Shown one piece after another: positions 21,401 to 44,179 of a DNA stretch of 50,301 bases; position 1 is the first letter of the stretch, and each line of letters starts with the position of its first letter. Location: contig JAUYMI010000029.1 in assembly GCA_030698665.1 (NCBI GenBank), positions 1 through 50,301 on the forward strand, written 5' to 3'. Under the pieces are notes generated by a model. That model saw nothing but the letters and a program-made list of their open reading frames with translations, had not been told where the DNA came from and searched no databases. The position numbers were made by a program, and so were the translations under genes. The DNA comes from a bacterium. GTDB taxonomy: Bacteria; Patescibacteriota; Minisyncoccia; Minisyncoccales; UBA10102.

Positions 21401-21427
21401 ACAAAAGCAAAGCAGTTTGCTTTTGTC
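21400..21427 (+). repeat. 28-nt perfect hairpin, AAAAGCAAA family, overlapping the tRNA 5' end by 3 nt
   Basis: GACAAAAGCAAA-GCAG-TTTGCTTTTGTC. Confidence 0.6.
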
Positions 21428-21496
21428 CCCATAGCTCAAGGGATAGAGTGTAGCCCTCCGAAGGCTGAGATGCAGGTTCGAGTCCTGCTGGGGACA
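21425..21496 (+). tRNA. tRNA-Arg (anticodon CCG)
   Basis: Hand-folded cloverleaf. Acceptor GTCCCCA/TGGGGAC; D stem GCTC/GAGT; anticodon stem TAGCC/GGCTG with loop CTCCGAA; T arm GCAGG-TTCGAGT-CCTGC; discriminator A. No CCA is encoded. Confidence 0.9.
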
Positions 21497-21523
21497 CAGA
21501 CGGATTTCTGGTATACTGAACGT

Positions 21524-31773: not shown

Positions 31774-32122
31774 TGGTGGAGGCGGGGAGGATGAGCTCCC
31801 GTCCAGCATGAGTAGGCCTCGTGAGTCTTCAAGCGTAGTCGGGCCTGGTAAGGAACGGAGTCAAGGCCCGACGAAATCTCCATTCCTGCGGTCCCTTATG
31901 CGGCGGTGAGTCGGGACCAGATTTTCACCGTCGTTTCTCGAAACGTGACGCCTCTTTGACCTATCGAGAATCGGTCAGGAGACGGCCGTAAGCTTACGCT
32001 ACAGCTAAGGCCGGTTGTCGGCCGAATATGTTGCCAGATAATGTGGCCCCACTTGATTTGTGAGAGATCGGGGCTCTCAGCTTGCACACGCAGCTTCCCA
32101 TCCTGTCAATGCGCTCGCCCCC
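31774..32122 (-). ncRNA. ssrA: tmRNA (SsrA)
   Basis: The 5' GGGGGCG pairs with the 3' CGCCUCC-ACCA, including a G3:U70 wobble. The T arm is GGGAG/CUCCC. The internal reading frame GGC AAC ATA TTC GGC CGA CAA CCG GCC TTA GCT GTA GCG TAA gives tag GNIFGRQPALAVA. The gene is 349 nt and lies directly downstream of smpB. Confidence 0.85.
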
Positions 32123-32127
32123 GTGTC

Positions 32128-32577
32128 TTAGCGGTTCTTGAGCGCGGCTCTCATCTCTCGTTCTGCCTCACGTTTTGCGATGGTTTGGCGCTTGTCGTGT
32201 TCCTTCTTTCCCCGCGCCAAGGCGAACTCAAGCTTGATGGTGCCGTGGTCAGCACTATACACCCTCAAGGGTATCATCGTCAAGCCACGGGCCTTGCTCT
32301 TGCCCATGAGTCCTTTCATCTCCCGCTTGTGCACAAGAAGCTTCCTTGAGCGCCCTGGGTCGTAGTCAGCGGGCGTGTTCTTTGGCTGATATGCAGGAAT
32401 CGTGGCTCCCACGAGCCAGAGCTCTCCCCGTGTGGGCACAACATAGGAGCCGGCCAGCTGGAATCTTCCCATTCTGACCGATTTTACCTCGTGGCCCAGC
32501 AAAACGATGCCCGCCTGCATGCGTTCTAATATCTCGTATCCGTATGCCCCTCTTTTATTTTCAGCAAAAATCTTCAT
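32128..32577 (-). CDS. smpB: SsrA-binding protein SmpB
   Basis: 149 aa (ENKRGAYGYEILERMQAGIVLLGHEVKS, GRSRKLLVHKREM, basic C-tail). Confidence 0.92.
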   Translation of the reverse strand: MKIFAENKRGAYGYEILERMQAGIVLLGHEVKSVRMGRFQLAGSYVVPTRGELWLVGATIPAYQPKNTPADYDPGRSRKLLVHKREMKGLMGKSKARGLTMIPLRVYSADHGTIKLEFALARGKKEHDKRQTIAKREAEREMRAALKNR

Positions 32578-32618: not shown

Positions 32619-34334
32619 ATGATTGCAGATGAGTTCAAGGAAGAGATAGAGGAAGCGCTCGTTCTCCTTCAAAAACAAGGAAAGCTTTCCGCAGGCGATC
32701 TGCCCGAGGTTGAGGTTGAGGTTCCGGAGATTCCCGAGCATGGCGACTACTCAACCAACATTGCCCTTCGCCTCTCAAAGCTCACGGAGCAGAGCCCGCA
32801 GGAGACAGCCCATCTTATCGCCGGCGCCCTCAAACACCCTGTCCAGGTGGCGCAGCCGGGATTTTTGAACATGAGTGTTTCGCTTGATCGTCTGGCTGTT
32901 GAGATGGCCGAGATTCTCAAGCAGAAAGAGAGATACGGAAAGGGTTCTGAGTCAAAGAAGATTGTCGTTGAGTACTCAAGCCCGAACATTGCAAAAAGAT
33001 TCGGCATCGGGCATCTGAGGTCCACCATCATCGGGCAGGCGATATACAATCTTTTCTCCTTTCAGGGGAATAGAACGATTGGAGACAATCACCTCGGGGA
33101 CTGGGGAACACAGTTCGGCGCGCTGATCTACCAAATAGAGCGGGTACTTGAAGGGAAGTCGGATTCCGAACGGAAGCACTTCCTCCTCAACTTGAGCGTG
33201 GAGGAGATGGAGCGTCTCTATACGGAGTTTCACCTTCAGGCAGAGAACAATGAGAAGCTGAGAGACGATGCGAGAGCTGCTTTCAAGCGTTTGGAAGACG
33301 GGGACACGTCTACTCGCGAAATCTGGGAGGCATCGCGCAGGATTAGCCTCAAGGAGTTTGACGAAATATATAGCCTGCTCGGGGTTCGCATAGACCATGC
33401 CCTTGGTGAGGCGTTTTTTGAGAAAGACCTTACCGGGATCATTGAGGAGGTGCAGAAGAAAGGCATTGCCAAAGAGAGCCAAGGAGCGCTTATTGTGGAG
33501 TTTGAGGATATGCCTCCCGCTATGTTGAGAAAGTCGGATGGAGCGAGCACATACTTCACTCGCGACCTTGCGACGGCCCGATACCGATTGAAGAAATGGG
33601 AGCCCGATTTTGTCGTTATAGAAACGGGGGCCGAACAATCCCTACACTTCAGGCAGGTTTTCCGCACGGTGGAGTTGTTGGGGTGGGCAAAAGAAGAAGG
33701 GTTTTTTCATGTGGGACACGGGCTGTACCGGACGAAGGAGGGGAAGTTCTCAACGAGACGCGGCAAGACGGTTCAGCTCAAAGAGGTGCTGGAAGATGCC
33801 ATTGAGCGGGCGGAAGAGATTATTGAGGGATCGGCGACAGGCGGACTTGATGAGTATGAGAAGAAAGAAGTTGCCCGTATGGTCGGAATCGGCGGCGTGA
33901 AGTACAACGACCTGGTCCAGCACCCAAGAAAGGACATCGTTTTTGAATGGGATAGGATTCTCAATCTGAGGGGCAACTCGGCAGCTTACATTCAGTACAC
34001 GCATGCGAGGTGCCAGAGCATCCTGGGGAAAGCAAGGACGCCCAGAAGCTCTTCCTACAAAGACATTTCACCAGCGGAGACCTCACTTTTGAGAATTCTT
34101 CAGGGGTTTCCTCTCCAGGCTCGTTTGGCAAGCCAGCGCTTTTCTCCGAACCTTATGTGCTCGTACGCTTTCAGCTTGGCTCAGGCATATAACCACTTCT
34201 ATCAGCAGCACCGGGTGCTGGAGGCCGAGAGCAAGGAGGCAAAGGACTTCCGGCTTTGCCTCACGGCGGCCACGGCCCAGATTCTCAAAACCTCCCTTTC
34301 TCTCCTCGGCATTGAGGCGCCAGAGCGCATGTAG
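32619..34334 (+). CDS. argS: arginyl-tRNA synthetase
   Basis: SPNIAKRFGIGHLRS (HIGH region), the class I core and a DALR anticodon-binding C-terminus ending ...GIEAPERM. The start is taken at ATG 32619 (MIADEFKEE). Confidence 0.92.
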   Translation: MIADEFKEEIEEALVLLQKQGKLSAGDLPEVEVEVPEIPEHGDYSTNIALRLSKLTEQSPQETAHLIAGALKHPVQVAQPGFLNMSVSLDRLAVEMAEILKQKERYGKGSESKKIVVEYSSPNIAKRFGIGHLRSTIIGQAIYNLFSFQGNRTIGDNHLGDWGTQFGALIYQIERVLEGKSDSERKHFLLNLSVEEMERLYTEFHLQAENNEKLRDDARAAFKRLEDGDTSTREIWEASRRISLKEFDEIYSLLGVRIDHALGEAFFEKDLTGIIEEVQKKGIAKESQGALIVEFEDMPPAMLRKSDGASTYFTRDLATARYRLKKWEPDFVVIETGAEQSLHFRQVFRTVELLGWAKEEGFFHVGHGLYRTKEGKFSTRRGKTVQLKEVLEDAIERAEEIIEGSATGGLDEYEKKEVARMVGIGGVKYNDLVQHPRKDIVFEWDRILNLRGNSAAYIQYTHARCQSILGKARTPRSSSYKDISPAETSLLRILQGFPLQARLASQRFSPNLMCSYAFSLAQAYNHFYQQHRVLEAESKEAKDFRLCLTAATAQILKTSLSLLGIEAPERM

Positions 34335-34375
34335 CTCAATTGAAAAAAGGGGTTCTCCGTGATACCTTGTTTCAT

Positions 34376-37300
34376 ATGGAACTCAATCTTCCAAAACTGG
34401 AAGAGCAAATGCTCGCCCGATGGCGGCAGGAGAAGGCCTTTGAGAAATCCCTCTCAAAACGGAAGCGCTCTCCCCGCTTTGTTTTTTACGAAGGCCCTCC
34501 AACGGCAAACGCGGGGCCCGCACTCCATCATGTCCTCTCCCGGGCCTTCAAGGACGTGGTTTTGAGGTATAAGACCATGCGAGGATTTCTGGTTGAGCGC
34601 AAGGCGGGGTGGGATACACACGGGCTTCCCGTGGAGCTGCAGATTGAAAAAAAGCTCGGTCTCACCTCAAGGAAAGAAATTGAAGAGTATGGGATTGCTC
34701 GCTTCAACAAGCAGTGCCGGGACTCAGTGTGGAAGTTCAAGGGAGAGTGGGAGAAGCTGACGGAGAGAATCGGATTCTGGCTGGATACAGATCATCCCTA
34801 CATTACCTACGAGACACCGTATATTGAATCGTTGTGGTGGATCATCAAACAGTTTGCGGACAGAAAGCTCCTGTACCGTGATTACAAAGTGGTTCCATAC
34901 TGTCCGAGGTGCGGCACCTCTCTTTCTTCCCACGAGCTTGCCCAGGGGTACAAGACCGTGAAGGATACTTCCGTGTACGTGAGTTTCCGGGTCGTTAAAG
35001 GGAAGGCACATATTCCTGTGGGCACATCGCTTGTTGCCTGGACCACGACTCCATGGACTCTGCCTGGAAACGTAGCCCTGGCCGTGAACCCAAAGGTCTC
35101 ATACGCGCTTGTCAAAAAAGATGGGAAGAACTTTGTGGTTGCAAAAGAGCGTGTGTCGCAGGTGTTCGGGGAGAATGCAGAGGTTGTTGAGCGCTTTGTG
35201 GGCAGGGAGCTTGTGGGACTCACATATGAGCCACTCTTTCGCTTTGGCAAGCCCGAGGAAGGCAAAAAGGTGTGGGAGGTTGTCCCAGCTGACTTTGTCT
35301 CTATGCAAGAGGGAACCGGTATTGTGCACACTGCCGTTGCCTATGGAGTTGATGACTTTGAGCTGGGGAAAAAAGAGGGCCTTGCCATGCTGCACTTGGT
35401 GGACAGTGAGGGGAAGTTCACGAGCGATGTCGCGCCGTGGGCCGGGATCCGCGTGATGGATGCCAACCTATCCATCATCCAGCATCTCAAGCAGTCGGGG
35501 CATGTGCTTTACCAAGAAGAGATTGAACACGAGTATCCCTTTTGCTGGAGGTGTTCAACGCCACTTCTGTACTACGCAAAGGAGTCCTGGTTTGTTGCCA
35601 TGAGTCGCCTCAAGGATCAACTTCTCTTCAATAACAGTAAGGTGAACTGGGTGCCTTCGCACATTAAAGAGGGAAGGTTTGGCTCTTGGCTAGCTGAGGT
35701 GAAGGACTGGGCGTTTTCCCGCGACCGGTACTGGGGAACTCCCTTGCCCATCTGGGAGTGCGCGAAGTGCGGAGCGCATGTTGTCATAGGATCCCTCCGC
35801 GAGCTTTCAGAGAGGCAGGTGTCTCAGAATACGTATTTTACCATGCGCCACGGCCACTCAGAGCGTCAGGAGCTCAAGGGCAACATCATCTCCTGCTGGC
35901 CCGAGAAAAAGGAACTTCACCTGACGGAAAAAGGAAGGCGCGAGGTCAGGAAGGCTGCTCAAGAACTCAAGAAAAAGAAGATAGATGTCATCTTGACTTC
36001 AGACCTTATGCGCACGAGAGAGACCTCAGAGATTCTTGGGGCAGAGCTTGGTATCAAGCCAAGGATTGAGAAGGCTCTTCGTGAGATTGACGTTGGTAAA
36101 CTCAACGGAAAACCGCTCAACGAGGTTGCCGCATATTGGAGACGGGAGAGCCAGACGCCGTCTGAGCACTACCGTTTGAGATTTGAGCTTTCAGCCCCCG
36201 GAGGGGAAAGCTATCGCGACGTTGAAAAAAGGGTGTACCGGTTGCTCTTGAAGCTTGAAAAGCAGTATCACGGGAAAAATATTCTTTTGGTTTCCCATCA
36301 GCGAGTCATCTCGCTCATGGAGGTGGCCGTCCGCGGCTTGAGCCGTGATGAGGCGGCAAAATATTGGAAGGCGCATGATCCTGAAACCGCAGAGTGGAGA
36401 AAGGCCGAGTTCCATCAGCTTCCCTATAATGACGACATGGAGCTTGACCTGCACCGTCCGTACATAGACAGCGTTGTCTTGCCGTGTGACTCCTGCACGA
36501 AAGGAGAGATGAGGAGGGTGAGGGAAGTAGTTGATGTCTGGTTTGACTCGGGAGCCATGCCCTTTGCCCAGCTCCACTACCCCTTTGAGAACAAGGCGGC
36601 GATTAATGGGAAGACATGGTTCCCGGCCGACTACATCACAGAAGCCATTGATCAGACGCGGGGCTGGTTCTACACCCTTTTAGCCGTTGCCACGGCTCTG
36701 GGGAAGGGGACCCCGTACAAGAACGTCATCTCCTTGGGGCACATCATGGATGAGAATGGAGAGAAGATGTCAAAGTCCAAGGGAAACATCGTGAATCCCT
36801 GGGAGGCTGTTTCTCGCTATGGGGCTGACGCAATTCGTTGGCACTTCTATACGGCTTCCTCACCCGGGGATTCTAAGCCCTTTGCCGAACAGGAAATTCA
36901 GCTCACGATCAGAAAGTTCATCCTGACCATTTGGAACTCATACCTTTTCTATGAAACATATAAGCCAGAAGGCCTCCGTGTCTCAAAAAGTTCCCACGTG
37001 TTGGATCGATGGATCCTTTCCCGTCTTCAATCTTTGCGAAACGAGATGACTCTCCAGATGGATACCTATGACATCACGGGTGCTGCCCGCGCGCTGGAGA
37101 GATTTGTCATTGACGACGTATCTTTGTGGTACGTCAGGCGCTCCCGTTCCAGGTTCCAGAACCCGAGCTCCCAAAAGGAGCTCCGGGAAGCAGCCTCAAC
37201 CCTTAGACTGGTATTGGAGGAGATTTCGTGTCTTGCGGCCCCCTTCATTCCTTTTTTGTCTGATTTCATGTACCGGTCCTTATCTCAAAAGCAAGAAAGC

Positions 37301-37849
37301 GTGCACTGGGTCCGTTGGCCAAAGGAAGCTGGGGCCTATTTGAACGTCAAGCTGGAACAAGAGATGGAGAGGGCCCGAGACGTGGTACAAAGGGGGCTGA
37401 GCCAGCGCTCGCGCCACAGCATCAAGGTTCGGCAGCCCTTGGCATCCCTGAGCTCCGGAGAGCGCTTCTCGCTCGAGGTTGCAGAGATTATTGCTGAAGA
37501 GCTCAATGTGAAAAAGCTGATTCACCTCTCTTCGCTGGGGTCCGACGTTCGCTTTGATACCGTTATTACGCCCGTCCTCAAGGCGGAGGGACAGCTCAGA
37601 GAGCTCTTCCGCCGTATTCAGGACATGCGCAAGCGGGCCGGGTACAAGCCCTCAGAGAAAGTAGAGCTCTGGTATGATGGGGATTCCCGGCTTACCACGA
37701 TGATACAAGAGAACGCCGAGAGTATCCGCCACCAGCTTCGGGTGGCTGACCTGAGAGCAGGAGACCGGCCCAAACTGGTATTTGATATTGAAGAGGAGTT
37801 CACGGTTGACGGAAACCGTCTGGGCCTTCATATGAGACGAGCTGCATGA
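34376..37849 (+). CDS. ileS: isoleucyl-tRNA synthetase (type 2) with an inserted histidine-phosphatase-like domain
   Basis: HIGH region (PTANAGPALHHV), CP1 editing (TTTPWTLPGN), zinc knuckle halves (WECAKCG ... LPCDSC), DVWFDSG, KMSKSKGN. The start is taken at ATG 34376 (the ORF track starts at TTG 34340). Confidence 0.93.
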   Translation: MELNLPKLEEQMLARWRQEKAFEKSLSKRKRSPRFVFYEGPPTANAGPALHHVLSRAFKDVVLRYKTMRGFLVERKAGWDTHGLPVELQIEKKLGLTSRKEIEEYGIARFNKQCRDSVWKFKGEWEKLTERIGFWLDTDHPYITYETPYIESLWWIIKQFADRKLLYRDYKVVPYCPRCGTSLSSHELAQGYKTVKDTSVYVSFRVVKGKAHIPVGTSLVAWTTTPWTLPGNVALAVNPKVSYALVKKDGKNFVVAKERVSQVFGENAEVVERFVGRELVGLTYEPLFRFGKPEEGKKVWEVVPADFVSMQEGTGIVHTAVAYGVDDFELGKKEGLAMLHLVDSEGKFTSDVAPWAGIRVMDANLSIIQHLKQSGHVLYQEEIEHEYPFCWRCSTPLLYYAKESWFVAMSRLKDQLLFNNSKVNWVPSHIKEGRFGSWLAEVKDWAFSRDRYWGTPLPIWECAKCGAHVVIGSLRELSERQVSQNTYFTMRHGHSERQELKGNIISCWPEKKELHLTEKGRREVRKAAQELKKKKIDVILTSDLMRTRETSEILGAELGIKPRIEKALREIDVGKLNGKPLNEVAAYWRRESQTPSEHYRLRFELSAPGGESYRDVEKRVYRLLLKLEKQYHGKNILLVSHQRVISLMEVAVRGLSRDEAAKYWKAHDPETAEWRKAEFHQLPYNDDMELDLHRPYIDSVVLPCDSCTKGEMRRVREVVDVWFDSGAMPFAQLHYPFENKAAINGKTWFPADYITEAIDQTRGWFYTLLAVATALGKGTPYKNVISLGHIMDENGEKMSKSKGNIVNPWEAVSRYGADAIRWHFYTASSPGDSKPFAEQEIQLTIRKFILTIWNSYLFYETYKPEGLRVSKSSHVLDRWILSRLQSLRNEMTLQMDTYDITGAARALERFVIDDVSLWYVRRSRSRFQNPSSQKELREAASTLRLVLEEISCLAAPFIPFLSDFMYRSLSQKQESVHWVRWPKEAGAYLNVKLEQEMERARDVVQRGLSQRSRHSIKVRQPLASLSSGERFSLEVAEIIAEELNVKKLIHLSSLGSDVRFDTVITPVLKAEGQLRELFRRIQDMRKRAGYKPSEKVELWYDGDSRLTTMIQENAESIRHQLRVADLRAGDRPKLVFDIEEEFTVDGNRLGLHMRRAA
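35816..36445 (+). other. histidine phosphatase (PGAM-like, branch 1) domain inserted in IleRS
   Basis: YFTMRHGHSE, LTEKGRREVRKAAQELKKKKIDVILTSDLMRTRETSEIL, LREIDVGKLNGKPLNEV, PGGESYRDVEKRV, NILLVSHQRVISLM. The segment is in frame and flanked by IleRS motifs. Confidence 0.7.
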
Positions 37850-38541
37850 GGAGGCACGTGACGCAGGCCTACATTCTCACAAAATACCTCAGAGGGGAGG
37901 CCGATTCTCTCTGTGTGGTGTTCACAAAAGATTTTGGCAAGCTTGTTCTCAGGGCAGGGGGAGAGCATAAGATTACCTCAAAGCTCAGGGGAGGATTGGA
38001 GCCTCTTTCGCTCTCCACCCTGGAGTTCGTGGAAGTCAGGACGATGAGGATCACGGATGCCGTATCTTCTCATCGCTTTCCCAGCATTAAGAGGAACTTG
38101 TCCCGCCAGAGGACCGCGCGAGCCATAGTTGAGCTGACGGATGCGATGATGCGGGAAGGGGAGCCCGATGAGAAAGTGTGGCTGCTCTTAGAGGAGTGCT
38201 TCTTCCGTCTCTCCGCCTCCATCTCAAACTCCCCGCTTCTCTACTACTACTTCCTCTGGAAGATACTTTTGATTTTGGGGTACGCCCTAAAGGTTTCCTC
38301 GTGTGTCTTCTGTGGTCTCCCTATCGGGGGCCCCGCCGCTCTGGATGCTGAGAACGGAGGATTCAGGTGTTCTGCCTGCTGCAAAAACCCCGACACCCTT
38401 GTACCAGCAGAGGTTTTCTCGGCCGTCAGGACATTTCTCAACGGTACCCCGGGTCTTTTGTCTCAGACCTCATTCCACCACAAGGGCCTCGGAGAGATCT
38501 CCGAGGCCTACCTTTCGTATGTGAAGGAAGTTGTGCAATAA
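37846..38541 (+). CDS. recO: DNA repair protein RecO
   Basis: OB-fold N-terminus (QAYILTKYLRGEADSLCVVFTKDFGKL) and zinc motif CVFCG...CSAC. ATGA overlap with ileS. Confidence 0.8.
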   Translation: MRRHVTQAYILTKYLRGEADSLCVVFTKDFGKLVLRAGGEHKITSKLRGGLEPLSLSTLEFVEVRTMRITDAVSSHRFPSIKRNLSRQRTARAIVELTDAMMREGEPDEKVWLLLEECFFRLSASISNSPLLYYYFLWKILLILGYALKVSSCVFCGLPIGGPAALDAENGGFRCSACCKNPDTLVPAEVFSAVRTFLNGTPGLLSQTSFHHKGLGEISEAYLSYVKEVVQ

Positions 38542-38548
38542 TGGAGGC

Positions 38549-40195
38549 ATGACACGGAAAACATCTCTCGTCTTTGCACTCGGAGCCATTATCCTGCTTT
38601 TTGGGATGGGTGTTTTCATATGGCAGCGCAACTCATATTCAAAAGACGTCGTGCGTTTGGAGGTGCTTGCTCCAAAGGAAGTGGAGGCAGGGGAAGAGAT
38701 AACGTACAAGGTGACCTTCAAGAATAATGGGAACGCGGCGCTGGAAAATGTGCGTCTCTCCTTTGAGTTCCCCAAAGGCAGCGCTCCAAAGGAGGGGGGA
38801 GCCTTGAGAAAAAACATTGAGGTGGATGACATCTATCCTGGGCAGGAGGGAAGCCATGACTTTGCGGGCCGGCTCTTTGGCGCAGAGCAGGAAGTCCTGG
38901 AGGCCGCAGCCGAGCTTTCCTATACCCCCCGCAACCTGACGGCCACCTTTAGGTCCAAGACCATCTTTGTCAGCACCATCACCTTTGTCCCCCTGACCTT
39001 TGAAATGGATGTTCCCTCCCGAGCCCCGTCTGATCAGCAGATTGAGTTTTCCCTGAACTATTTCTCCAACATTGACTACCCGCTTTCCGACCTCAGAATC
39101 CAACTGCAGTACCCGGACAGCTTTGAGTTTCAGAGTTCTACCCCCGTTTCCCTATCTGAAAACGAGTGGGCGCTCCCGCTTTTGAACCGCGCTGACGGGG
39201 GGCGTATCTCCGTCAAGGGCGTGCTTCGAGGAAGCGCGGGAGACGACAAGCTCTTCCGGGCACTCATGGGAACCTGGAAGGAAGGAGAGTTCACGGTCTT
39301 CAAGGAAGTTACAAAGGGCGTTGAGGTTGTGGCTCCTCAGTTGTTTCTCTCGCAGGTGGTGAATGGATCCGTTGCCCACGTAGCGTCTCCGGGGGAGCAG
39401 CTGAACTACGAGATATATTTTAAGAACGTTTCAGACAAGAGCTTTGAGAATTTCTTTTTGGTGGTTGATCTTTCAGGGCGTCCTCTGGACTCAGCTTCGG
39501 TAGTTGCTCCCAACGGCAGTTTTTCTAAGAGCTCCTCTTCCATCATATGGGAGGCGGGGAGCAATCCGAGTCTCAGGTTTCTCGGCAAGGGAGAGGAAGG
39601 AAGTGTCTCCTTCTCGGTCAAGGTGCGCGATGGATGGGATATCGTAAGTCCCCAGGAGAAGAACTTTGCCATTCACACCGTACTCCAACTCTCAGACGTG
39701 AAAGAAGAGTTTGACGTAAAGGTGAACTCCGAGCTTGGCCTCACCCAGAGCGTTCACTATCAGGACGCCACCTTCTCTAATTCAGGACCCCTGCCCCCGC
39801 AGGTCGGTCAGGCGACAACATACACCGTGCTTTGGCGCGCAGAGAATCAGTACAACGATGTTCGTTCTGCAACCGTCAGAGCCCGTCTGCCCCAGGGAGT
39901 TGAGATGACGGGGTCCGTCTTTCCCATCGGTTCCCCGGTGGTCTTTGACTCGGTTTCGCGTGAAGTGGTATGGGAGGTAGGAGGGATGGGGGCGGCTTCC
40001 GGCATCCTGACTCCTGCCCCATCGGTTGCCTTCCAGGTGAGGCAGACCCCTACGGCTTCCCAACTCGGAACGTCTCTGGAGATTATATCTGAGGCCAGGA
40101 TTACCGCTGAGGACGATTACACCGGACGCCAGCTTTTTTCCTCATCTCCCCGGGTCACGACGAATCAGGTTGAGGGAGGAGGAGGTGTCCAATGA
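38549..40195 (+). CDS. membrane-anchored protein with four DUF11/CARDB-like beta-sandwich repeats (hypothetical)
   Basis: N-terminal TM segment (LVFALGAIILLFGMGVFIW). Repeated units include GEEITYKVTFKNNGNAALENVRLSFEFP, GEQLNYEIYFKNVSDKSFENFFLVVDL and GQATTYTVLWRAENQYNDVRSATVRARLP. Confidence 0.65.
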   Translation: MTRKTSLVFALGAIILLFGMGVFIWQRNSYSKDVVRLEVLAPKEVEAGEEITYKVTFKNNGNAALENVRLSFEFPKGSAPKEGGALRKNIEVDDIYPGQEGSHDFAGRLFGAEQEVLEAAAELSYTPRNLTATFRSKTIFVSTITFVPLTFEMDVPSRAPSDQQIEFSLNYFSNIDYPLSDLRIQLQYPDSFEFQSSTPVSLSENEWALPLLNRADGGRISVKGVLRGSAGDDKLFRALMGTWKEGEFTVFKEVTKGVEVVAPQLFLSQVVNGSVAHVASPGEQLNYEIYFKNVSDKSFENFFLVVDLSGRPLDSASVVAPNGSFSKSSSSIIWEAGSNPSLRFLGKGEEGSVSFSVKVRDGWDIVSPQEKNFAIHTVLQLSDVKEEFDVKVNSELGLTQSVHYQDATFSNSGPLPPQVGQATTYTVLWRAENQYNDVRSATVRARLPQGVEMTGSVFPIGSPVVFDSVSREVVWEVGGMGAASGILTPAPSVAFQVRQTPTASQLGTSLEIISEARITAEDDYTGRQLFSSSPRVTTNQVEGGGGVQ

Positions 40196-40196
40196 C

Positions 40197-41561
40197 ATGA
40201 ACAACGAGATGAAAGACATCGTATCATTAGCAAAACGAAGGGGATTCATCTTCCCCTCTTCTGAGATATATGGAGGAGTGGAGGCCTTGTGGGATTACGG
40301 TCCTCTGGGAGCCGCCACAAAGCAGAATATCAAGGATGCGTGGATCTCGCGCTTTGTGCGGGAGCAGGACAGCATGGTGCTCATTGATGCTGCCATAATC
40401 ATGCACCCTGCGGTCTGGAAGGCCTCAGGACACTTAGAGAACTTCACTGATCCCCTCATTGAGTGCAAGACCTGCAATGCCAGATTTCGGGCTGATCACA
40501 TGATGGACGGCAGGTTTGTTGGTCAGGGAGAGGCAAAGGAGAAAAATCAGTGTCCGAATTGCGGAGACCGCGACTTCACGCAGCCCAAGGATTTCAACCT
40601 CATGTTTAAGACCTTCCTGGGCCCCGTGGAGGATTCTGCCAACACAGCATACCTGAGGCCCGAGACGGCGCAGGCTATGTTCACGGACTTCAAGCTCGTG
40701 CAAGAGTCCATGCGCCTCAAGCTCCCATTCGGGATTGCGCAGATCGGCAAGTCCTTTCGCAACGAGATCACCACGGGCAACTTCACGTTTCGCTCCCGCG
40801 AGTTTGAGATTGCGGAGGCTGAGTTCTTCGTGCGCCCGGGCGAGGACGAGAAATGGTTTGAGTATTGGCTGGATCAGTGGGAAAAGTTCTTTGTGGATAT
40901 GGGATTGAACCCAAAGAAGCTGAGGAGGTATGAGCATCCCAAAAACTCCCTCGCCCACTACTCAAAGCGTACCGTGGACATTGAGTATGAGTTTCCCTTT
41001 GGGTGGTCGGAGCTCGGGGGAGTTGCCAACCGCACCGACTTTGATTTGCGACAGCACGAGAAGGCATCAGGCAAGGACCTTTCGTATCTTGATGAGGAGT
41101 CGGGCAAGAAAATCATTCCCTATGTCATTGAGCCTACGCTGGGCATTGAGCGCCTGCTCTTGGCCCTGCTTCTTGACTCCTACCGCGTCGTGAAGGGGGG
41201 AAGGAGCACCACTACCAAGTCAGTGAAAGAGGAGGAGGTGATGCTGGATCTCAGGCCCCAGATAGCTCCCGTGAAGGTTGCGGTCTTCCCTCTGTTGCGC
41301 AACAAGCCGGAGCTTGTGTCCAAAGCTAGAGAGATTTTTGAGGAGTTGAGAAAGCATTTCGCGTGCCAGTATGACGAAACAGGGGCTGTGGGCAGGAGAT
41401 ACCGAAGGCAGGACGAGATCGGAACTCCCTTTGCCGTCACTGTGGACTTTGAGACATTGGAGCAGGGGAGCGTAACCTTGCGGGATCGCAACACCATGGA
41501 GCAAGAGCGCGTGCAAATAACCCAACTGAAAGATGTCATCTCAAAGCGCCTCAAAGCATAA
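40197..41561 (+). CDS. glyQS: glycyl-tRNA synthetase (class II, homodimeric type)
   Basis: FIFPSSEIYGG, motif 2 FRNEITTGNFTFRSREFEIAEAEFF, motif 3 GIERLLLALL. A GGAGGAGGAGG Shine-Dalgarno lies upstream. Confidence 0.92.
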   Translation: MNNEMKDIVSLAKRRGFIFPSSEIYGGVEALWDYGPLGAATKQNIKDAWISRFVREQDSMVLIDAAIIMHPAVWKASGHLENFTDPLIECKTCNARFRADHMMDGRFVGQGEAKEKNQCPNCGDRDFTQPKDFNLMFKTFLGPVEDSANTAYLRPETAQAMFTDFKLVQESMRLKLPFGIAQIGKSFRNEITTGNFTFRSREFEIAEAEFFVRPGEDEKWFEYWLDQWEKFFVDMGLNPKKLRRYEHPKNSLAHYSKRTVDIEYEFPFGWSELGGVANRTDFDLRQHEKASGKDLSYLDEESGKKIIPYVIEPTLGIERLLLALLLDSYRVVKGGRSTTTKSVKEEEVMLDLRPQIAPVKVAVFPLLRNKPELVSKAREIFEELRKHFACQYDETGAVGRRYRRQDEIGTPFAVTVDFETLEQGSVTLRDRNTMEQERVQITQLKDVISKRLKA

Positions 41562-42819
41562 GCGGCACGTCTTGAGGAACGGCGTGACCGTTCTTGAGAT
41601 TGACAGTCCGAGTACGCAGGCTGCCACCGTGTTGGTGCTGGTCAAGACGGGTTCCAAGCATGAGACGAGGAAAGAGTCCGGCCTCTCCCACTTTTTAGAG
41701 CACATGTTTTTTAAGGGAACGAAGAAGCGCCCGACCCCGATTGCTGTCTCAGAGCCCTTGGATCTTGTGGGCGGCGTGTTCAACGCCTTCACCTCAGAGG
41801 AGTGCACAGGATACTTTGCCAAGGTGGACAGAGCGCATATCAAGCTCGCCATTGATTGGGTCTCAGATATCTTTCTTCACTCCACGATCCCAGTCCGAGA
41901 GGTGGAAAAAGAGAAGGGGGTGATCATAGAAGAGCAGAATATGAGGCGGGACGCCCCCATGATGCACATTGAGAGTATGTGGCAGCGCCTTCTCTACGGA
42001 GACCAGCCCGCCGGATGGGATATTGCTGGCACGAAAGAAAGTATTCAAGCCATGTCCCGAAATGACCTCACCTCGTACATGAAAGAGCAGTACGTCGCCA
42101 GCAATACCGTGGTCTGCATTGCTGGGAACCTCGGGCGTTCGGGAGCCGCGGCCCAGGTCAAGCGCGCTTTTCGTGCCGTTCCCTCTTCATCCCCCCGCGC
42201 GAAGCCCGAGGTCGTGGAGTTTCAGACAGATCCCAACGTGCTCTCAGAGTACAGAAAGACCGACCAGACCCACATTGCCCTCGGGGTGAGGGGGTATAAT
42301 CTATTCCACAAGGATCGCTTCGCCCAGGATCTCCTGGCCGTGATCTTGGGAGGCATGATGAGCTCCCGTCTATTTATTGAGATCAGAGAGCGCCTTGGAC
42401 TGGCATACTATGTCTCCACCCAGTCTGACTCCAATCCGGATACTGGGTTCGTAATGACGCAGGCGGGGGTAAGGAATGCAAACGCAGTGAAGGCGGTGTC
42501 AGCAATCCTCAAGGAGTACCGACGGGTAGCGATTCGCGGGGTGACGGCCCCAGAACTCAGAAAGGCGAAAGAGAACACGAAGGGCAAGTTGGCCTTGGCG
42601 TTGGAGTCCTCTGACCGGAAGGCGACCGCCTTTGGCCTCCAGCAGCTTTTGGAAGGCAGGACGTACAGCCTCCAAGAGATGTATGATATGATAGATAGCG
42701 TGAGGAGGTCTGACATCCACAGGGTCGCGAGCGACGTCTTCCGTTCAGAGAACCTGAATCTTGCGGTCCTGGGTCCCTTCAAGGACTCCTCCGAGTTTCA
42801 ATCTATTCTCAAGCTGTAA
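41533..42819 (+). CDS. M16-family (pitrilysin-like) zinc peptidase
   Basis: HxxEH motif in SHFLEHMFFKGT. 428 aa, two-domain. Confidence 0.85.
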   Translation: MSSQSASKHKRHVLRNGVTVLEIDSPSTQAATVLVLVKTGSKHETRKESGLSHFLEHMFFKGTKKRPTPIAVSEPLDLVGGVFNAFTSEECTGYFAKVDRAHIKLAIDWVSDIFLHSTIPVREVEKEKGVIIEEQNMRRDAPMMHIESMWQRLLYGDQPAGWDIAGTKESIQAMSRNDLTSYMKEQYVASNTVVCIAGNLGRSGAAAQVKRAFRAVPSSSPRAKPEVVEFQTDPNVLSEYRKTDQTHIALGVRGYNLFHKDRFAQDLLAVILGGMMSSRLFIEIRERLGLAYYVSTQSDSNPDTGFVMTQAGVRNANAVKAVSAILKEYRRVAIRGVTAPELRKAKENTKGKLALALESSDRKATAFGLQQLLEGRTYSLQEMYDMIDSVRRSDIHRVASDVFRSENLNLAVLGPFKDSSEFQSILKL

Positions 42820-43856
42820 TGGTTTCTCAGTACGGTTCCCTTGATATCACGTGGCCCACAATCTTCAAGCTTGCGCTTGCCGCTTTTGGCCTGTACGTGA
42901 TTTTTCTGATCAAGGACATCTTGGTCTGGGTACTTTTCGCTCTTGTCATTTCGGTGGTCTTTGACCCGGTCATTGATTTTCTTTGCAAACGCCGGATTCC
43001 CAGAACCCTGGCCGCTGTCCTGGTCTACTCTATGCTCTTTGCGTTCCTTGCCTTCACTATCTATAGTTCGGCCCCCTTCTTTCTTAAAGAGATTCAGCGC
43101 TTTTCCGCGCTCTTCCCTCAGTACTTTGAAACTCTAGCCCCTCCTTTGCAGGGAATCGGGATCACGGCGTTCTCTGACTTTCAAAGTTTTCTGGATGCGG
43201 TGGGCGGGAGCATTCAGCAGCTTGGGTCCAGTGCCGTTTCGGGCCTTTCAACCGTATTCGGGGGCCTCTTTTCCATGATCTTCGTCATCTCCATCGCGAT
43301 TTTCCTTTCCATTGAGGAGAAGTCCGTGGACCGCGCCATCTCCCTGCTTTTCCCAAAGAAGTATGAGGCCGTCGCTTTGAAGGTGTGGGGGCGAAGCCAG
43401 CGTCAGGTGGCGGGCTGGTTTCTCACTCGCCTGTTCTCCTCTGCGTTTGTGGGAGTTGCAACCTACATCGCTCTGGTGATTCTCAACGTTCCGTATCCCT
43501 TTTCCCTTTCACTTTTTTCAGGAGTTTTGAATCTTATCCCAATCGTAGGGCCTCTGCTTACTGGTGTCTTAATCGGAGGCGTAGTCGCATTGGATTCCAT
43601 ACCCAAGGCAATTTTTGTCCTGCTTTCCTTTATTCTCATTCAGCAGATTGAAGGAAACGTTCTCACCCCTCTTCTCACCAACCGTTTCGTCGGCCTGCCT
43701 CCCGCCCTTGTTCTCATCTCCCTGGCCATCGGAGGTCAGCTCTGGGGAGTGATGGGAGCCATTCTCGCAATTCCGTTAGCAGGCATCCTCTATGAATTCC
43801 TCCGGGATTTTCTCAAGAGGCGCCGCGAGGAGGAGGCGAAGGCCGCTCCTGTTTGA
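42819..43856 (+). CDS. AI-2E (PerM/UPF0118) family transporter
   Basis: 345 aa, ~8 TM, with NLIPIVGPLL and AILAIPLAG segments typical of the family. Confidence 0.85.
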   Translation: MVSQYGSLDITWPTIFKLALAAFGLYVIFLIKDILVWVLFALVISVVFDPVIDFLCKRRIPRTLAAVLVYSMLFAFLAFTIYSSAPFFLKEIQRFSALFPQYFETLAPPLQGIGITAFSDFQSFLDAVGGSIQQLGSSAVSGLSTVFGGLFSMIFVISIAIFLSIEEKSVDRAISLLFPKKYEAVALKVWGRSQRQVAGWFLTRLFSSAFVGVATYIALVILNVPYPFSLSLFSGVLNLIPIVGPLLTGVLIGGVVALDSIPKAIFVLLSFILIQQIEGNVLTPLLTNRFVGLPPALVLISLAIGGQLWGVMGAILAIPLAGILYEFLRDFLKRRREEEAKAAPV

Positions 43857-43881
43857 CGTTTTGAGCCAGTATGCGTATCCT
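43853..43881 (+). promoter_or_regulatory. candidate promoter of orphan cassette 0
   Basis: TTGACG (43853-43858, overlapping the AI-2E TGA stop), a 17-nt spacer, then TATCCT (43876-43881). Confidence 0.4.
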
Positions 43882-43902
43882 TTGAGCAGGAAGGAGAGAC
43901 AC

Positions 43903-44121
43903 ATGGCTCTTTTGCAAGAGGAGCTTGAGCTCGCCTGTGGGGAAAAGCAACGAGTCTGCTTCCAGGGAAGGGTCGTGGGTACGCTCTTTGCCGTGCATAC
44001 GAGCGCTGACTCCGTTCTCGGGGCGCTCGTCGTTACGAGGAGCCGCGTCACGAGATCCGGCCTTGAAGCTTTTACGGCTTGGTTCCCGGCAGCCGAACTC
44101 TCGCTCGCGGAACCTCAATGA
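43903..44121 (+). CDS. hypothetical 72-aa protein (orphan cassette 0)
   Basis: GGAAGGAGAG Shine-Dalgarno 5-14 nt upstream of the ATG. Sequence MALLQEELELACGEKQRVCFQGRVVGTLFAVHTSADSVLGALVVTRSRVTRSGLEAFTAWFPAAELSLAEPQ. A terminator follows immediately. Confidence 0.45.
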   Translation: MALLQEELELACGEKQRVCFQGRVVGTLFAVHTSADSVLGALVVTRSRVTRSGLEAFTAWFPAAELSLAEPQ

Positions 44122-44147
44122 TCCCGATACGTCGGGGTCTTCTTTTT
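44120..44147 (+). terminator. intrinsic terminator of cassette 0
   Basis: GATCCCGA-TACG-TCGGGGTC followed by TTCTTTTT. Confidence 0.65.
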
Positions 44148-44179
44148 GAGAGAAGAGATAATTATGATACAACACTCGT

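What the first reader, a model, noticed from the sequence alone, without database searches (positions are those of the whole stretch)
35816..36445. Histidine-phosphatase (PGAM-like) domain inserted into the catalytic core of isoleucyl-tRNA synthetase
In type-2 IleRS, the two halves of the zinc-knuckle region (PIWEC.KCG...GS..EL and DLHRPYID...C..C...DVWFDSG) are joined, as far as I know, by a short linker. Here ~205 aa (residues ~481-690 counted from ATG 34376) intervene. They carry the full set of branch-1 histidine-phosphatase hallmarks in the right order.
- Beta-strand plus RHG: YFTMRHGHSE
- LTEKGRREVRKAAQELKKKKIDVILTSDLMRTRETSEIL (second Arg)
- LREIDVGKLNGKPLNEV
- PGGESYRDVEKRV
- NILLVSHQRVISLM (second His)
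The frame is continuous. HIGH, CP1 editing and KMSKS are intact on both sides. The neighbouring genes (argS, recO) are normal. This is therefore a genuine domain insertion with apparently intact catalytic residues, not a fusion of adjacent genes. I am not aware of a phosphatase domain embedded in an aminoacyl-tRNA synthetase. Possible roles, all speculative, are dephosphorylation of 2'/3'-phosphorylated tRNA ends, of nucleotide by-products, or of a phosphorylated inhibitor, or a regulatory moonlighting activity.
Basis: partly seen in the sequence, partly recalled or inferred. Interest (0 to 1): 0.75.

Follow-up and report, generated by a model that had tools for sequence, protein, structure and literature searches.

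The report
Phosphatase domain nested inside isoleucyl-tRNA synthetase
This candidate-phyla-radiation bacterium's isoleucyl-tRNA synthetase has a complete, apparently active histidine-phosphatase domain built into its catalytic body; at least 80 related species share this, relatives keep the same phosphatase as a separate gene just upstream of ileS, and I found no paper describing it.

Summary
ORF 34376-37849 is a type-2 IleRS of 1157 aa. About 207 residues (aa 480-688, nt 35813-36439) replace a 6-residue linker in the zinc-knuckle hairpin of subdomain CP3. They form a branch-1 histidine phosphatase (Pfam E 9e-33; fold nearest PspA, PhoE and a glucosyl-3-phosphoglycerate phosphatase).

It is not an assembly artefact. 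The same in-frame insert at the same site occurs in at least 80 GTDB species representatives, mostly Parcubacteria. R491, H492, R546 and H641 are invariant in 81 of 81 sequences; E570 is E in 78 and D in 3.

New here:
- In relatives with the same synteny, the phosphatase is a separate 194-204 aa gene directly upstream of an insert-less ileS (5 of 5 contexts). In one case it is fused to the argS C-terminus.
- Other IleRS carry two or three copies at three further loops.
- Close relatives of the domain are also fused to ValRS, TsaC and a MiaB-like enzyme.

The "HIGH" motif is really ALHH, the non-canonical mupirocin hyper-resistance variant.

Best reading: an active phosphatase module functionally tied to IleRS. 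Its substrate is unknown; my leading guess is a phosphate on tRNA. No paper found describes this. Interest 0.75.

The parts
34376..37849 (+). ileS: type-2 isoleucyl-tRNA synthetase carrying the nested phosphatase. 1157 aa from ATG 34376; an upstream TTG at 34340 is an alternative start.
   Evidence: TIGR00392, 887.9 bits. Full-length AF2 model: pLDDT 91.0, pTM 0.84. Foldseek TM 0.76-0.87 (normalised to target length) against IleRS2 structures 8C8U, 1ILE and 9WQS.
34520..34531 (+). Class I signature motif in its non-canonical form, ALHH (aa 49-52).
   Evidence: The G/AXHH motif is described in PMC10485003.
34376..35812 (+). N-terminal IleRS part (aa 1-479): first half of the Rossmann fold, CP core, CP1 editing domain (TTPWT at 35045, GTGIVH at 35312), CP2, and the first half of the CP3 zinc knuckle.
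   Evidence: aligns to PmIleRS2 residues 13-476..
35759..35770 (+). First CxxC of the CP3 zinc knuckle (C462-A-K-C465).
   Evidence: CP3 naming and the zinc motif of T. thermophilus IleRS come from PMC7191050.
35813..36439 (+). Inserted branch-1 histidine-phosphatase domain (aa 480-688).
   Evidence: Pfam PF00300, E 9.2e-33 within the protein and 1.9e-34 alone. No counterpart in PmIleRS2. Ordinary IleRS2 have 6 aa here. AF2 pLDDT is at or above 90 over most of the domain. Foldseek TM 0.73-0.77 against PspA 4IJ6, GpgP 4PZ9 and PhoE 1H2E.
35846..35854 (+). RHG motif: R491, the nucleophile H492, and G493.
   Evidence: R and H are invariant in 81 of 81 sequences; G in 78 of 81.
36011..36013 (+). 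Second phosphate-binding arginine, R546 (in SDLMRTRET).
   Evidence: 81 of 81.
36083..36085 (+). Proton-donor glutamate, E570 (in LREID).
   Evidence: 78 E and 3 D among 81.
36296..36298 (+). Second catalytic histidine, H641 (in LLVSHQ).
   Evidence: 81 of 81.
36443..36496 (+). Return to IleRS: the LDLHRPYID motif and the second CxxC of the CP3 knuckle (C704-D-S-C707).
36764..36778 (+). KMSKS motif (aa 797-801).
32619..34334 (+). argS, the upstream neighbour. In relatives the phosphatase is a separate gene between argS and ileS, or is fused to the argS C-terminus.
   Evidence: TIGR00456, 428.8 bits..
37846..38541 (+). recO, the downstream neighbour. It is part of the conserved synteny used to recognise orthologous loci.

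Best explanation
The window encodes what is probably the housekeeping type-2 IleRS of a Parcubacteria-like (CPR) bacterium. A compact histidine phosphatase of about 200 aa, similar to PhoE, PspA and CobC, is nested at the tip of the zinc-knuckle hairpin of subdomain CP3. This hairpin lies just before the second half of the Rossmann fold.

Shown:
- The domain is complete and predicted to fold independently. It is joined to CP3 by short linkers that are modelled with high confidence.
- It keeps every catalytic residue across at least 80 species.
- It belongs to one family of phosphatases that exists in three states: a separate gene immediately 5' of ileS, a C-terminal fusion to the neighbouring argS, or an insert inside ileS. 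The insert occupies four different surface loops, in one to three copies.

Inferred:
- It is an active phosphomonoesterase that uses the family's standard mechanism. H492 attacks the phosphate to form a phospho-histidine intermediate. R491, R546 and H641 hold the phosphate. E570 protonates the leaving group. Water then releases phosphate.
- Its function is coupled to IleRS. It has been tethered to the synthetase so that it acts beside the aminoacylation machinery.

Most likely substrate (my estimate, about 0.3): a phosphate group on tRNA, for example a 2'/3'-phosphate or pyrophosphate blocking the CCA end. Bound tRNA would then be made chargeable.

The stated confidence of 0.6 covers the shown points and the two inferred points together. 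It does not cover the substrate.
For: Identity and integrity of the domain.

Same insert at the same site:
- 24 partial homologues at 36-53% identity.
The 80 best loci were fetched and checked; nearly all are single ORFs of 1100-1290 aa, and the shorter ones are cut by contig ends or a run of N.

Purifying selection on catalysis:
- R491, H492, R546, R619 and H641 are invariant in 81 of 81; E611 in 80 of 81; E570 is E in 78 and D in 3.
- Mean pairwise identity is 0.39 for the insert against 0.50 for the IleRS core.

Link to IleRS:
- Standalone orthologues of 194-204 aa (39-43% identical to the insert) lie directly upstream of ileS in 5 of 5 informative contexts. In the three contexts that extend past the insertion point, that ileS lacks the insert.
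- Conversely, no second copy of the phosphatase is found in the flanks (up to 6 kb, where the contig allows) of the 80 insert-bearing loci. argS lies upstream in at least 54 of them.
- An argS-phosphatase fusion occurs in a locus with the window's own synteny.
- Extra copies or other sites B, C and D occur in P0126, P0205, P0211 and P0220, and every copy keeps the catalytic residues. The P0220 cluster is seen on contigs up to 1.06 Mb.

tRNA lead:
- Every other host found among the 150 closest representatives acts on tRNA or tRNA modification: ValRS, ArgRS, TsaC and a MiaB/MtaB-like methylthiotransferase.
- Phosphorylated CCA ends that block charging are a known phenomenon: toxSAS enzymes, some of them specific for particular tRNAs (PMC11559606, PMC11782079).
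Against: - No activity was measured, and I know of no histidine phosphatase that acts on an RNA end (own knowledge).
- The cap region that usually shapes substrate specificity (aa 580-607) is poorly conserved, and two homologues have lost it. This neither identifies a substrate nor excludes a small molecule.
- Four different insertion loops and one to three copies argue that exact geometry relative to the CCA end is not required.
- The cyanobacterial CAAD precedent shows that class I synthetases repeatedly capture a neighbouring protein for reasons unrelated to catalysis on tRNA.
- The TsaC and ValRS fusions each rest on one or two short contigs.
- Whether this is the only IleRS in the genome cannot be told from 50 kb.
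Confidence: 0.6

Rival explanations
1. The phosphatase acts on a small molecule. It is tethered to IleRS to act on a nucleotide by-product (AMP, PPi) or to hydrolyse a phosphorylated inhibitor that mimics an adenylate at the mouth of the active site. This would be an in-cis resistance or detoxification module.
For: - The nearest solved relatives all act on small molecules: phosphoserine phosphatase PspA, broad-specificity PhoE, CobC and GpgP.
- IleRS, ValRS, ArgRS and TsaC all form acyl-adenylates and release PPi (established biochemistry; hosts).
- 32 of 74 insert-bearing IleRS, including this one, carry the G/AXHH motif that gives mupirocin hyper-resistance. This suggests pressure from IleRS inhibitors.
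- Multiple copies at several loops fit a need for proximity or dosage rather than precise geometry.
- Some IleRS carry a GNAT domain: NF040702 and P0234. GNAT and HIT enzymes are known to detoxify aminoacyl-adenylate mimics (own knowledge: MccE, MccH).
Against: - I know of no phosphate-bearing natural inhibitor of IleRS.
- The MiaB-like host makes no adenylate.
- The specificity cap is not conserved.
- PPi and AMP are produced by all 20 synthetases, yet the association is centred on IleRS.
Confidence: 0.2
2. The domain is a non-catalytic passenger or a scaffolding or localisation module. It would have been captured because monomeric class I synthetases tolerate insertions, as with CAAD in cyanobacteria. 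It could also serve as a protein phosphatase or regulatory switch acting on IleRS or a partner.
For: - CAAD shows recurrent capture of a stand-alone, sometimes neighbouring, protein at several sites in ValRS, IleRS, LeuRS, GluRS, ArgRS, MetRS and CysRS. Removing CAAD from Anabaena ValRS hardly changed its kinetics.
- Other in-frame passengers occur in these IleRS, for example a Y1 transposase-like domain in P0234.
- Branch-1 members include protein phosphatases such as SixA (weak match, 35.9 bits).
Against: - Strict invariance of all catalytic residues over 81 sequences, and in every extra copy, is not expected of a purely structural module.
- The SixA model is far below its cutoff of 74.5 bits.
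- The standalone form is kept next to ileS.
Confidence: 0.12
3. The insert is an artefact or a selfish element: an assembly chimera, a mis-joined pair of genes, or an intein-like or transposon-derived insertion with no role for the host.
For: Only that the feature is unusual, and that the C-terminal junction often reads ..LPHN.., which superficially recalls the end of an intein.
Against: - Base composition runs smoothly across both junctions.
- The same junctions occur in at least 80 independent genome assemblies and in many metagenome contigs at only 34-58% identity.
- Pfam finds no Hint, intein or endonuclease domain.
- The whole segment is a histidine-phosphatase fold.
- The residues flanking the junctions are not those inteins require.
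- The catalytic residues are conserved.
Confidence: 0.02

Closest known systems
CAAD-containing class I aminoacyl-tRNA synthetases of cyanobacteria (ValRS, IleRS, LeuRS, GluRS, ArgRS, MetRS, CysRS; PMC4893482)
   Same: Both are lineage-specific and recurrent captures of a protein that also exists on its own. Both insert at several alternative loops of monomeric class I synthetases. For one host in each case, the origin is a neighbouring gene (gltX-curt1 there, argS-phosphatase-ileS here). The host enzyme stays active or intact.
   Different: CAAD is a non-enzymatic membrane anchor, whereas this insert is a catalytic domain with invariant active-site residues. The lineage differs (Patescibacteria, not cyanobacteria). 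So does the main site (CP3, inside the catalytic body), and up to three copies occur per enzyme.
Small branch-1 histidine phosphatases: PspA (4IJ5), PhoE/YhfR (1H2E, 1EBB), CobC (6NRU, 6E4B), GpgP Rv2419c (4PZ9)
   Same: Same fold (Foldseek TM 0.7-0.77 against these targets), same size of about 200 aa, and the same catalytic set R-H-(G)...R...E...H.
   Different: Those are free-standing enzymes acting on small molecules. No curated NCBIfam model for any of them is reached: CobC 93.4 against a cutoff of 162.9, PspA 62 against 350, archaeal dPGM 70.8 against 225. The cap region differs and is variable. This family is nested in, or encoded beside, a tRNA synthetase.
Type-2 IleRS with the non-canonical G/AXHH signature motif (D. 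radiodurans ALHH; P. megaterium IleRS2 structures 8C8U-8C8W; PMC10485003)
   Same: The host enzyme is an IleRS2 (34% identical to the P. megaterium enzyme, TM 0.76-0.78). It carries exactly ALHH, as D. radiodurans IleRS2 does.
   Different: Those enzymes have a linker of about 6-10 residues where this one has a 207-residue phosphatase.
Bifunctional RNase H / acid phosphatase (NCBIfam NF005567, PRK07238; Rv2228c type)
   Same: It is another case of a branch-1 histidine phosphatase covalently joined to an enzyme that works on nucleic acid. It is also the second-best NCBIfam match of the insert (84 bits).
   Different: It is an end-to-end fusion, not a nested domain. The partner is different, and the score is far below the cutoff of 326.
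IleRS with an added N-acetyltransferase domain (NCBIfam NF040702, ileS_w_GNAT)
   Same: It shows that IleRS does acquire extra catalytic domains. One relative found here, P0234, has both the phosphatase and a C-terminal GNAT.
   Different: The window protein has no GNAT domain and scores 320 bits against a cutoff of 1999.

Membership tests
Isoleucyl-tRNA synthetase, type 2 (TIGR00392 ileS; IleRS2) | The whole protein scores above the curated equivalog cutoff. | tested here: met
   887.9 bits against a cutoff of 621.4. Best PDB matches are IleRS2 of P. megaterium and T. thermophilus, E about 1e-250.
Isoleucyl-tRNA synthetase, type 2 (TIGR00392 ileS; IleRS2) | Class I signature motifs HxGH (or the IleRS2-specific G/AXHH) and KMSKS. 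| tested here: met
   ALHH at aa 49-52 is the non-canonical form known only in IleRS2 (PMC10485003). KMSKS is at aa 797-801.
Isoleucyl-tRNA synthetase, type 2 (TIGR00392 ileS; IleRS2) | CP1 editing domain and a type-2 C-terminal region. | tested here: met
   PDB editing-domain chains match aa 191-388. The TTPWT and GTGIVH motifs are present. PF08264 and PF19302 cover aa 877-1151. The full-length model superposes on 8C8U, 1ILE and 9WQS with TM 0.76-0.87. I did not test separately for absence of the type-1 C-terminal zinc-binding domain.
Isoleucyl-tRNA synthetase, type 2 (TIGR00392 ileS; IleRS2) | Aminoacylates tRNA-Ile, and is the only IleRS of the cell. | not testable with these tools
   This needs biochemistry and the whole genome. 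No second IleRS lies in the 50 kb window.
Histidine phosphatase superfamily, branch 1 (Pfam PF00300) | Profile match above the gathering score. | tested here: met
   114 bits within the protein and 119.5 bits alone, against a cutoff of 21.7.
Histidine phosphatase superfamily, branch 1 (Pfam PF00300) | Catalytic set: RHG with the nucleophile His, a second Arg, an acid Glu and a second His. | tested here: met
   R491, H492, G493, R546, E570 and H641 are present. R, H, R and H are invariant in 81 of 81 homologues; E570 is E in 78 and D in 3.
Histidine phosphatase superfamily, branch 1 (Pfam PF00300) | The alpha/beta fold of the family. | tested here: met
   AF2 model with pLDDT 84.5 (fragment) and 91.0 (full length). 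Foldseek probability 1.00 and TM 0.73-0.77 against 4IJ6, 4PZ9 and 1H2E.
Histidine phosphatase superfamily, branch 1 (Pfam PF00300) | Phosphatase or mutase activity through a phospho-histidine intermediate. | not testable with these tools
   Needs an enzyme assay.
Cofactor-dependent phosphoglycerate mutase (dPGM; TIGR01258, NF038349) | Score above the curated cutoff. | tested here: not met
   pgm_1 scores 26.2 against 81.7. dPGM_arch scores 70.8 against 225.
Alpha-ribazole phosphatase CobC (TIGR03162) | Score above the curated cutoff. | tested here: not met
   93.4 bits against 162.9.
Phosphoserine phosphatase PspA (NF045917) and phosphohistidine phosphatase SixA (TIGR00249) | Score above the curated cutoff. 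| tested here: not met
   PspA scores 62 against 350. SixA scores 35.9 against 74.5.
Intein or other self-splicing or mobile protein insertion | A Hint or endonuclease domain and conserved splice-junction residues. | tested here: not met
   No such Pfam domain. The whole insert is a His_Phos fold. The junction residues vary.
Anti-phage defence proteins (PADLOC) | Match to any defence-system model. | tested here: not met
   No hit for the insert or for two standalone orthologues.

The most novel reading that the evidence does not exclude
[quoted passage not shown] That would make IleRS in these bacteria a combined "repair or erase, then charge" enzyme. It would also reveal a cycle of tRNA phosphorylation and dephosphorylation (toxin-driven or regulatory) in the candidate phyla radiation. 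It would be the first histidine phosphatase known to act on RNA, and the first phosphatase activity built into an aminoacyl-tRNA synthetase.
Probability: 0.25. Interest if true: 0.9.

Novelty: new variant of a known kind. Interest (0 to 1): 0.75.

Why it matters
Aminoacyl-tRNA synthetases are among the best-studied enzymes. The only hydrolytic module known to be nested in IleRS is the CP1 editing domain.

Here a second catalytic domain, a phosphatase, has been tied to IleRS again and again. It appears as a neighbouring gene, as an insert at four different loops, in up to three copies, and across at least 80 species. Its active site is invariant throughout. This implies a phosphate-removal step that matters for isoleucine charging, or for tRNA handling, in a large uncultured branch of bacteria.

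The system is directly testable with recombinant protein. It could reveal a new tRNA repair or regulatory activity, or a new kind of built-in antibiotic protection. It is also a clean natural example of how a separate gene becomes a nested domain.

Tried and rejected
1. The genome scan with the insert-only alignment A2 failed because no stretch was conserved enough. I solved this by adding the 12-residue junction (A3), so that the pattern came from LDLHRPYID and the tblastn confirmation came from the insert.

2. Assembly chimera: rejected on composition and recurrence.

3. Apparent split ileS in L059: only a run of N in the record.

4. Intein or mobile element: no supporting domain or junction residues.

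5. I tried to count how many times the standalone gene became an insert.
- Nearest-neighbour typing and a [WYF]P[ED] loop motif (30 of 49 standalone, 29 of 190 nested including the window) hint at more than one event.
- The identity difference is tiny, 0.370 against 0.354. This remains unresolved.
- About 4 of the 49 sequences classed as standalone are really fragments of nested genes.

6. Net charge as a hint of RNA binding: standalone forms are basic (mean pI 8.5, net charge +8.8) and the window insert has pI 9.5, but nested forms average neutral. The evidence is weak.

7. Defence-system and phage libraries: no PADLOC hit, and only a PHROG of unknown function.

8. Promoter and terminator scan around the gene: nothing above shuffled controls.

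9. Literature: eight searches found no description of a phosphatase in or beside an aaRS (one search gave the G/AXHH paper).

10. Orientation of the phosphatase pocket relative to the tRNA path: not obtainable, because model coordinates are not exposed.
Full report
**What is in the window.** The + strand ORF 34340/34376-37849 is continuous. It is an isoleucyl-tRNA synthetase of type 2: TIGR00392 scores 887.9 bits against a cutoff of 621.4, and the best solved relatives are P. megaterium IleRS2 and T. thermophilus IleRS at E about 1e-250.

Pfam splits the class I catalytic domain in two and places a His_Phos_1 domain (PF00300) at aa 490-660, with E 9.2e-33. Against PmIleRS2, residues 8-479 align to 13-476 and residues 679-1047 align to 476-846, so about 200 residues have no counterpart. 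In a multiple alignment, ordinary IleRS2 have six residues between "IGS..EL.." and "LDLHRPYID" where this protein has 207.

All motif coordinates were checked by translation. One detail needs correcting: the signature motif is ALHH (34520-34531), not HIGH. This is the non-canonical G/AXHH form described for IleRS2. In D. radiodurans IleRS2 (also ALHH) it raises the mupirocin Ki to 6.6 mM (PMC10485003).

**It is real and old.** Base composition is smooth across the junctions.
- A protein search with aa 430-740 found about 40 clusters with PF00133 plus PF00300. They cover the whole query at 36-53% identity and come mostly from Patescibacteria.
- A scan of one genome per GTDB species used the junction peptide as the search pattern and the insert for confirmation. 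I fetched the best 80, and each covers essentially the whole insert. Record titles name Wildermuth-, Taylor-, Nealson-, Jorgensen-, Zambryski-, Kaiser-, Lloyd-, Adler-, Colwell-, Yanofsky- and Nomurabacteria, Paceibacterota and Minisyncoccia.
- In nearly all 80, the insert lies in a single ORF of 1100-1290 aa. The shorter ones are cut by contig ends or, in L059, by a run of N.
- The window protein is 56-58% identical to its nearest relatives, L001 and the Wildermuthbacteria locus L003.

**The active site is under selection.** Across the window plus the 80 loci:
- R491, H492, R546, R619 and H641 are invariant (81 of 81).
- E611 is present in 80 of 81.
- E570 is E in 78 and D in 3.
- G493 is present in 78.

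Mean pairwise identity is 0.39 in the insert against 0.50 in the IleRS core, and the two correlate (Spearman 0.36). The region that normally forms the substrate-specific cap (aa 580-607) and aa 650-675 are poorly conserved. The zinc-knuckle cysteines are kept in only about 45 of 81 sequences, so the knuckle is dispensable while the insert is not.

**Structure.**
- An AF2 model of aa 430-740 has pLDDT 84.5 and pTM 0.81. Linker blocks score 85-96, suggesting rigid rather than floppy attachment.
- The full-length model has pLDDT 91.0 and pTM 0.84, with no segment below 50.
- The fragment model, which is mostly the insert, matches PspA, GpgP and PhoE with TM 0.73-0.77. A profile search of PDB sequences gives the same neighbours.
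- The full-length model matches IleRS2 structures with TM 0.76-0.87, so the host scaffold is predicted to be preserved.

**The key new evidence: a gene next door.** I searched 1.84 billion representative proteins with the insert alone. Of 146 newly retrieved hits among the best 150, roughly 85 are IleRS, whole or fragmentary, with the domain at aa 477-479|689-691. About 45 are genuine stand-alone proteins of 180-215 aa.

Every stand-alone protein whose context I could read lies immediately upstream of ileS:
- L084: argS, then three short ORFs, then the phosphatase, then ileS (955 aa), then one ORF, then recO.
- L085: L20, L35, IF3, SmpB, then one short gene, then argS, phosphatase, ileS.
- L090: argS, phosphatase, ileS (984 aa), then one ORF, then recO.
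- L088/L089 and L083: the downstream fragment is the IleRS N-terminus.

In L084, L085 and L090 the IleRS runs straight from window position about 483-494 to 693, so it lacks the insert. Conversely, the flanks (up to 6 kb, where the contig allows) of the 80 insert-bearing loci contain no second copy of the phosphatase, and argS is upstream in at least 54 of them. The window's own order is IF3, tmRNA, SmpB, argS, ileS, recO, surface protein, glyS, M16 peptidase, which is the same synteny.

In L081, which shares that synteny, the phosphatase is fused directly to the last residue of ArgRS, and recO follows with no ileS between. So one phosphatase family occurs as a separate gene, as a terminal fusion, or as a nested domain. 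The separate and nested states look mutually exclusive at this locus.

**More copies, more sites, more hosts.** Other IleRS carry the domain at three further loops, in window numbering:
- B: about 709-712, just after the second CxxC.
- C: about 732-747, after DVWFDSG.
- D: about 868-875, before the anticodon-binding helices.

The combinations seen are A+B (P0211, Ca. Peribacteria), A+D (P0126), C+D (P0220) and B+C+D (P0205). P0220 has six cluster members on contigs up to 1.06 Mb and sits in a different gene context. All copies keep the catalytic residues.

The only non-IleRS hosts among the closest 150 are:
- a ValRS with four copies, one of them at the homologous CP3 site;
- the ArgRS fusion;
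- a TsaC/Sua5 fusion;
- a fusion to a MiaB/MtaB-like radical-SAM methylthiotransferase, seen on six contigs.

The TsaC and MiaB-like fusions are not next to ileS. All four hosts act on tRNA or on tRNA modification.

**How it most likely works.** Shown: a complete, conserved phosphatase fold, rigidly attached and genomically locked to IleRS. Inferred: it is catalytically active by the family mechanism. H492 forms the phospho-histidine intermediate. R491, R546 and H641 bind the phosphate. E570 acts as the general acid. Also inferred: its job is linked to isoleucine charging.

The substrate is not determined. I rank three options:
1. A phosphate on tRNA (about 0.3). The fusion partners are all tRNA enzymes. 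CP insertions of class I synthetases surround the cleft where the acceptor end enters (established knowledge). CCA ends blocked by pyrophosphate, sometimes in a tRNA-specific way, are a known route of translation inhibition.
2. A small molecule at the active-site mouth, either a nucleotide by-product or a phosphorylated adenylate-mimic inhibitor (about 0.2). This is supported by the small-molecule nature of all solved relatives and by the co-occurring G/AXHH resistance motif.
3. A structural, localisation or protein-phosphatase role (about 0.1). The cyanobacterial CAAD insertions are the precedent.

Several different loops and several copies suggest that proximity matters more than exact geometry. 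This weakens, but does not exclude, option 1.

**Comparison with what is known.** The host is a member of IleRS2, and the insert is a member of branch-1 histidine phosphatases. Every defining feature I could test is met. The insert is not a member of any curated subfamily: dPGM, CobC, PspA, SixA and the RNase H/acid phosphatase model all fall below their cutoffs.

The closest analogue as a phenomenon is CAAD, a stand-alone protein repeatedly captured at several loops of class I synthetases, once from a neighbouring gene. CAAD, however, is a membrane anchor and not an enzyme. NCBIfam's "ileS_w_GNAT" shows that IleRS can gain catalytic domains. Eight literature searches, including a 2026 preprint that annotated domain architectures for a database of 96,219 IleRS sequences, turned up no mention of a phosphatase.

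**Verdict.** The feature is real, conserved and apparently undescribed. It is a new variant of a known kind: a synthetase with an accessory domain. The chance that it represents a new activity is appreciable.

Caveats:
- No biochemistry was done.
- The orientation of the pocket is unknown.
- The ValRS and TsaC fusions rest on short contigs.
- The total number of species is a lower bound.
- The whole genome of the window organism was not available to exclude a second IleRS.

Noticed in passing
window 34520-34531: The IleRS signature motif is ALHH, the non-canonical G/AXHH variant. In D. radiodurans IleRS2 (also ALHH) this motif gives mupirocin hyper-resistance. Among 74 insert-bearing IleRS with this region, 42 have HxGH and 32 have [GA]xHH, so both forms coexist with the insert.
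   Followed up: partly
window 31774-32122 (-) and 32128-32577 (-): A tmRNA gene (Rfam RF00023, 81.9 bits) lies directly beside smpB. ARAGORN reported only tRNA-Arg(CCG) at 21425-21497 and did not report the tmRNA.
   Followed up: no
window 32619-45616: Four aminoacyl-tRNA synthetase genes lie within 13 kb: argS (32619-34334), ileS, dimeric-type glyS (40170-41561), and a short metG of 478 aa (44180-45616) that lacks a C-terminal extension.
   Followed up: partly
window 35759-35770 and 36485-36496; loci L001-L080: The four cysteines of the CP3 zinc knuckle are present in the window but retained in only about 45 of 81 insert-bearing IleRS. The knuckle has been lost repeatedly while the insert is kept.
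   Followed up: partly
P0234 (JGI, 11.3 kb contig): An IleRS with an in-frame IS200-like Y1 transposase domain (aa 340-461) in the editing-domain region. It also has the phosphatase at the usual site and a C-terminal GNAT acetyltransferase.
   Followed up: no
P0123 (L093, L094; 3.9 kb contigs): A ValRS carrying four divergent histidine-phosphatase copies, one of them at the CP3 site homologous to the IleRS site. The ORF stops after the fourth copy and coverage is low, so the gene may be incomplete.
   Followed up: partly
P0205, P0220 (L095), P0126, P0211: IleRS with two or three phosphatase copies at other loops (window aa about 709-712, 732-747 and 868-875). P0220 sits in a different gene context (DAHP synthase, SLH protein), which suggests independent acquisition outside the argS-ileS-recO lineage.
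   Followed up: partly
window 35900-35925 (aa about 509-517) and homologues: A [WYF]P[ED] loop motif after RHG (window: CWPEKKELHLT) marks 30 of 49 sequences classed as standalone (about 4 of which are fragments of nested genes), the ArgRS- and TsaC-fused domains, and only 29 of 190 nested domains. The window's clade is among those 29. This may mean the window's insert stems from a separate or more recent capture.
   Followed up: partly
window 36143-36172 (aa 590-599): An extra stretch of about 10 residues (RESQTPSEHY) in the cap region is shared with few homologues, P0001 among them. Two homologues (P0027, P0039) instead lack about 38 residues of the cap.
   Followed up: no
window 32544-32577: The longest argS ORF overlaps the 5' end of smpB on the opposite strand. 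The NCBIfam match begins at the internal ATG at 32619, so the true argS start is probably there.
   Followed up: no
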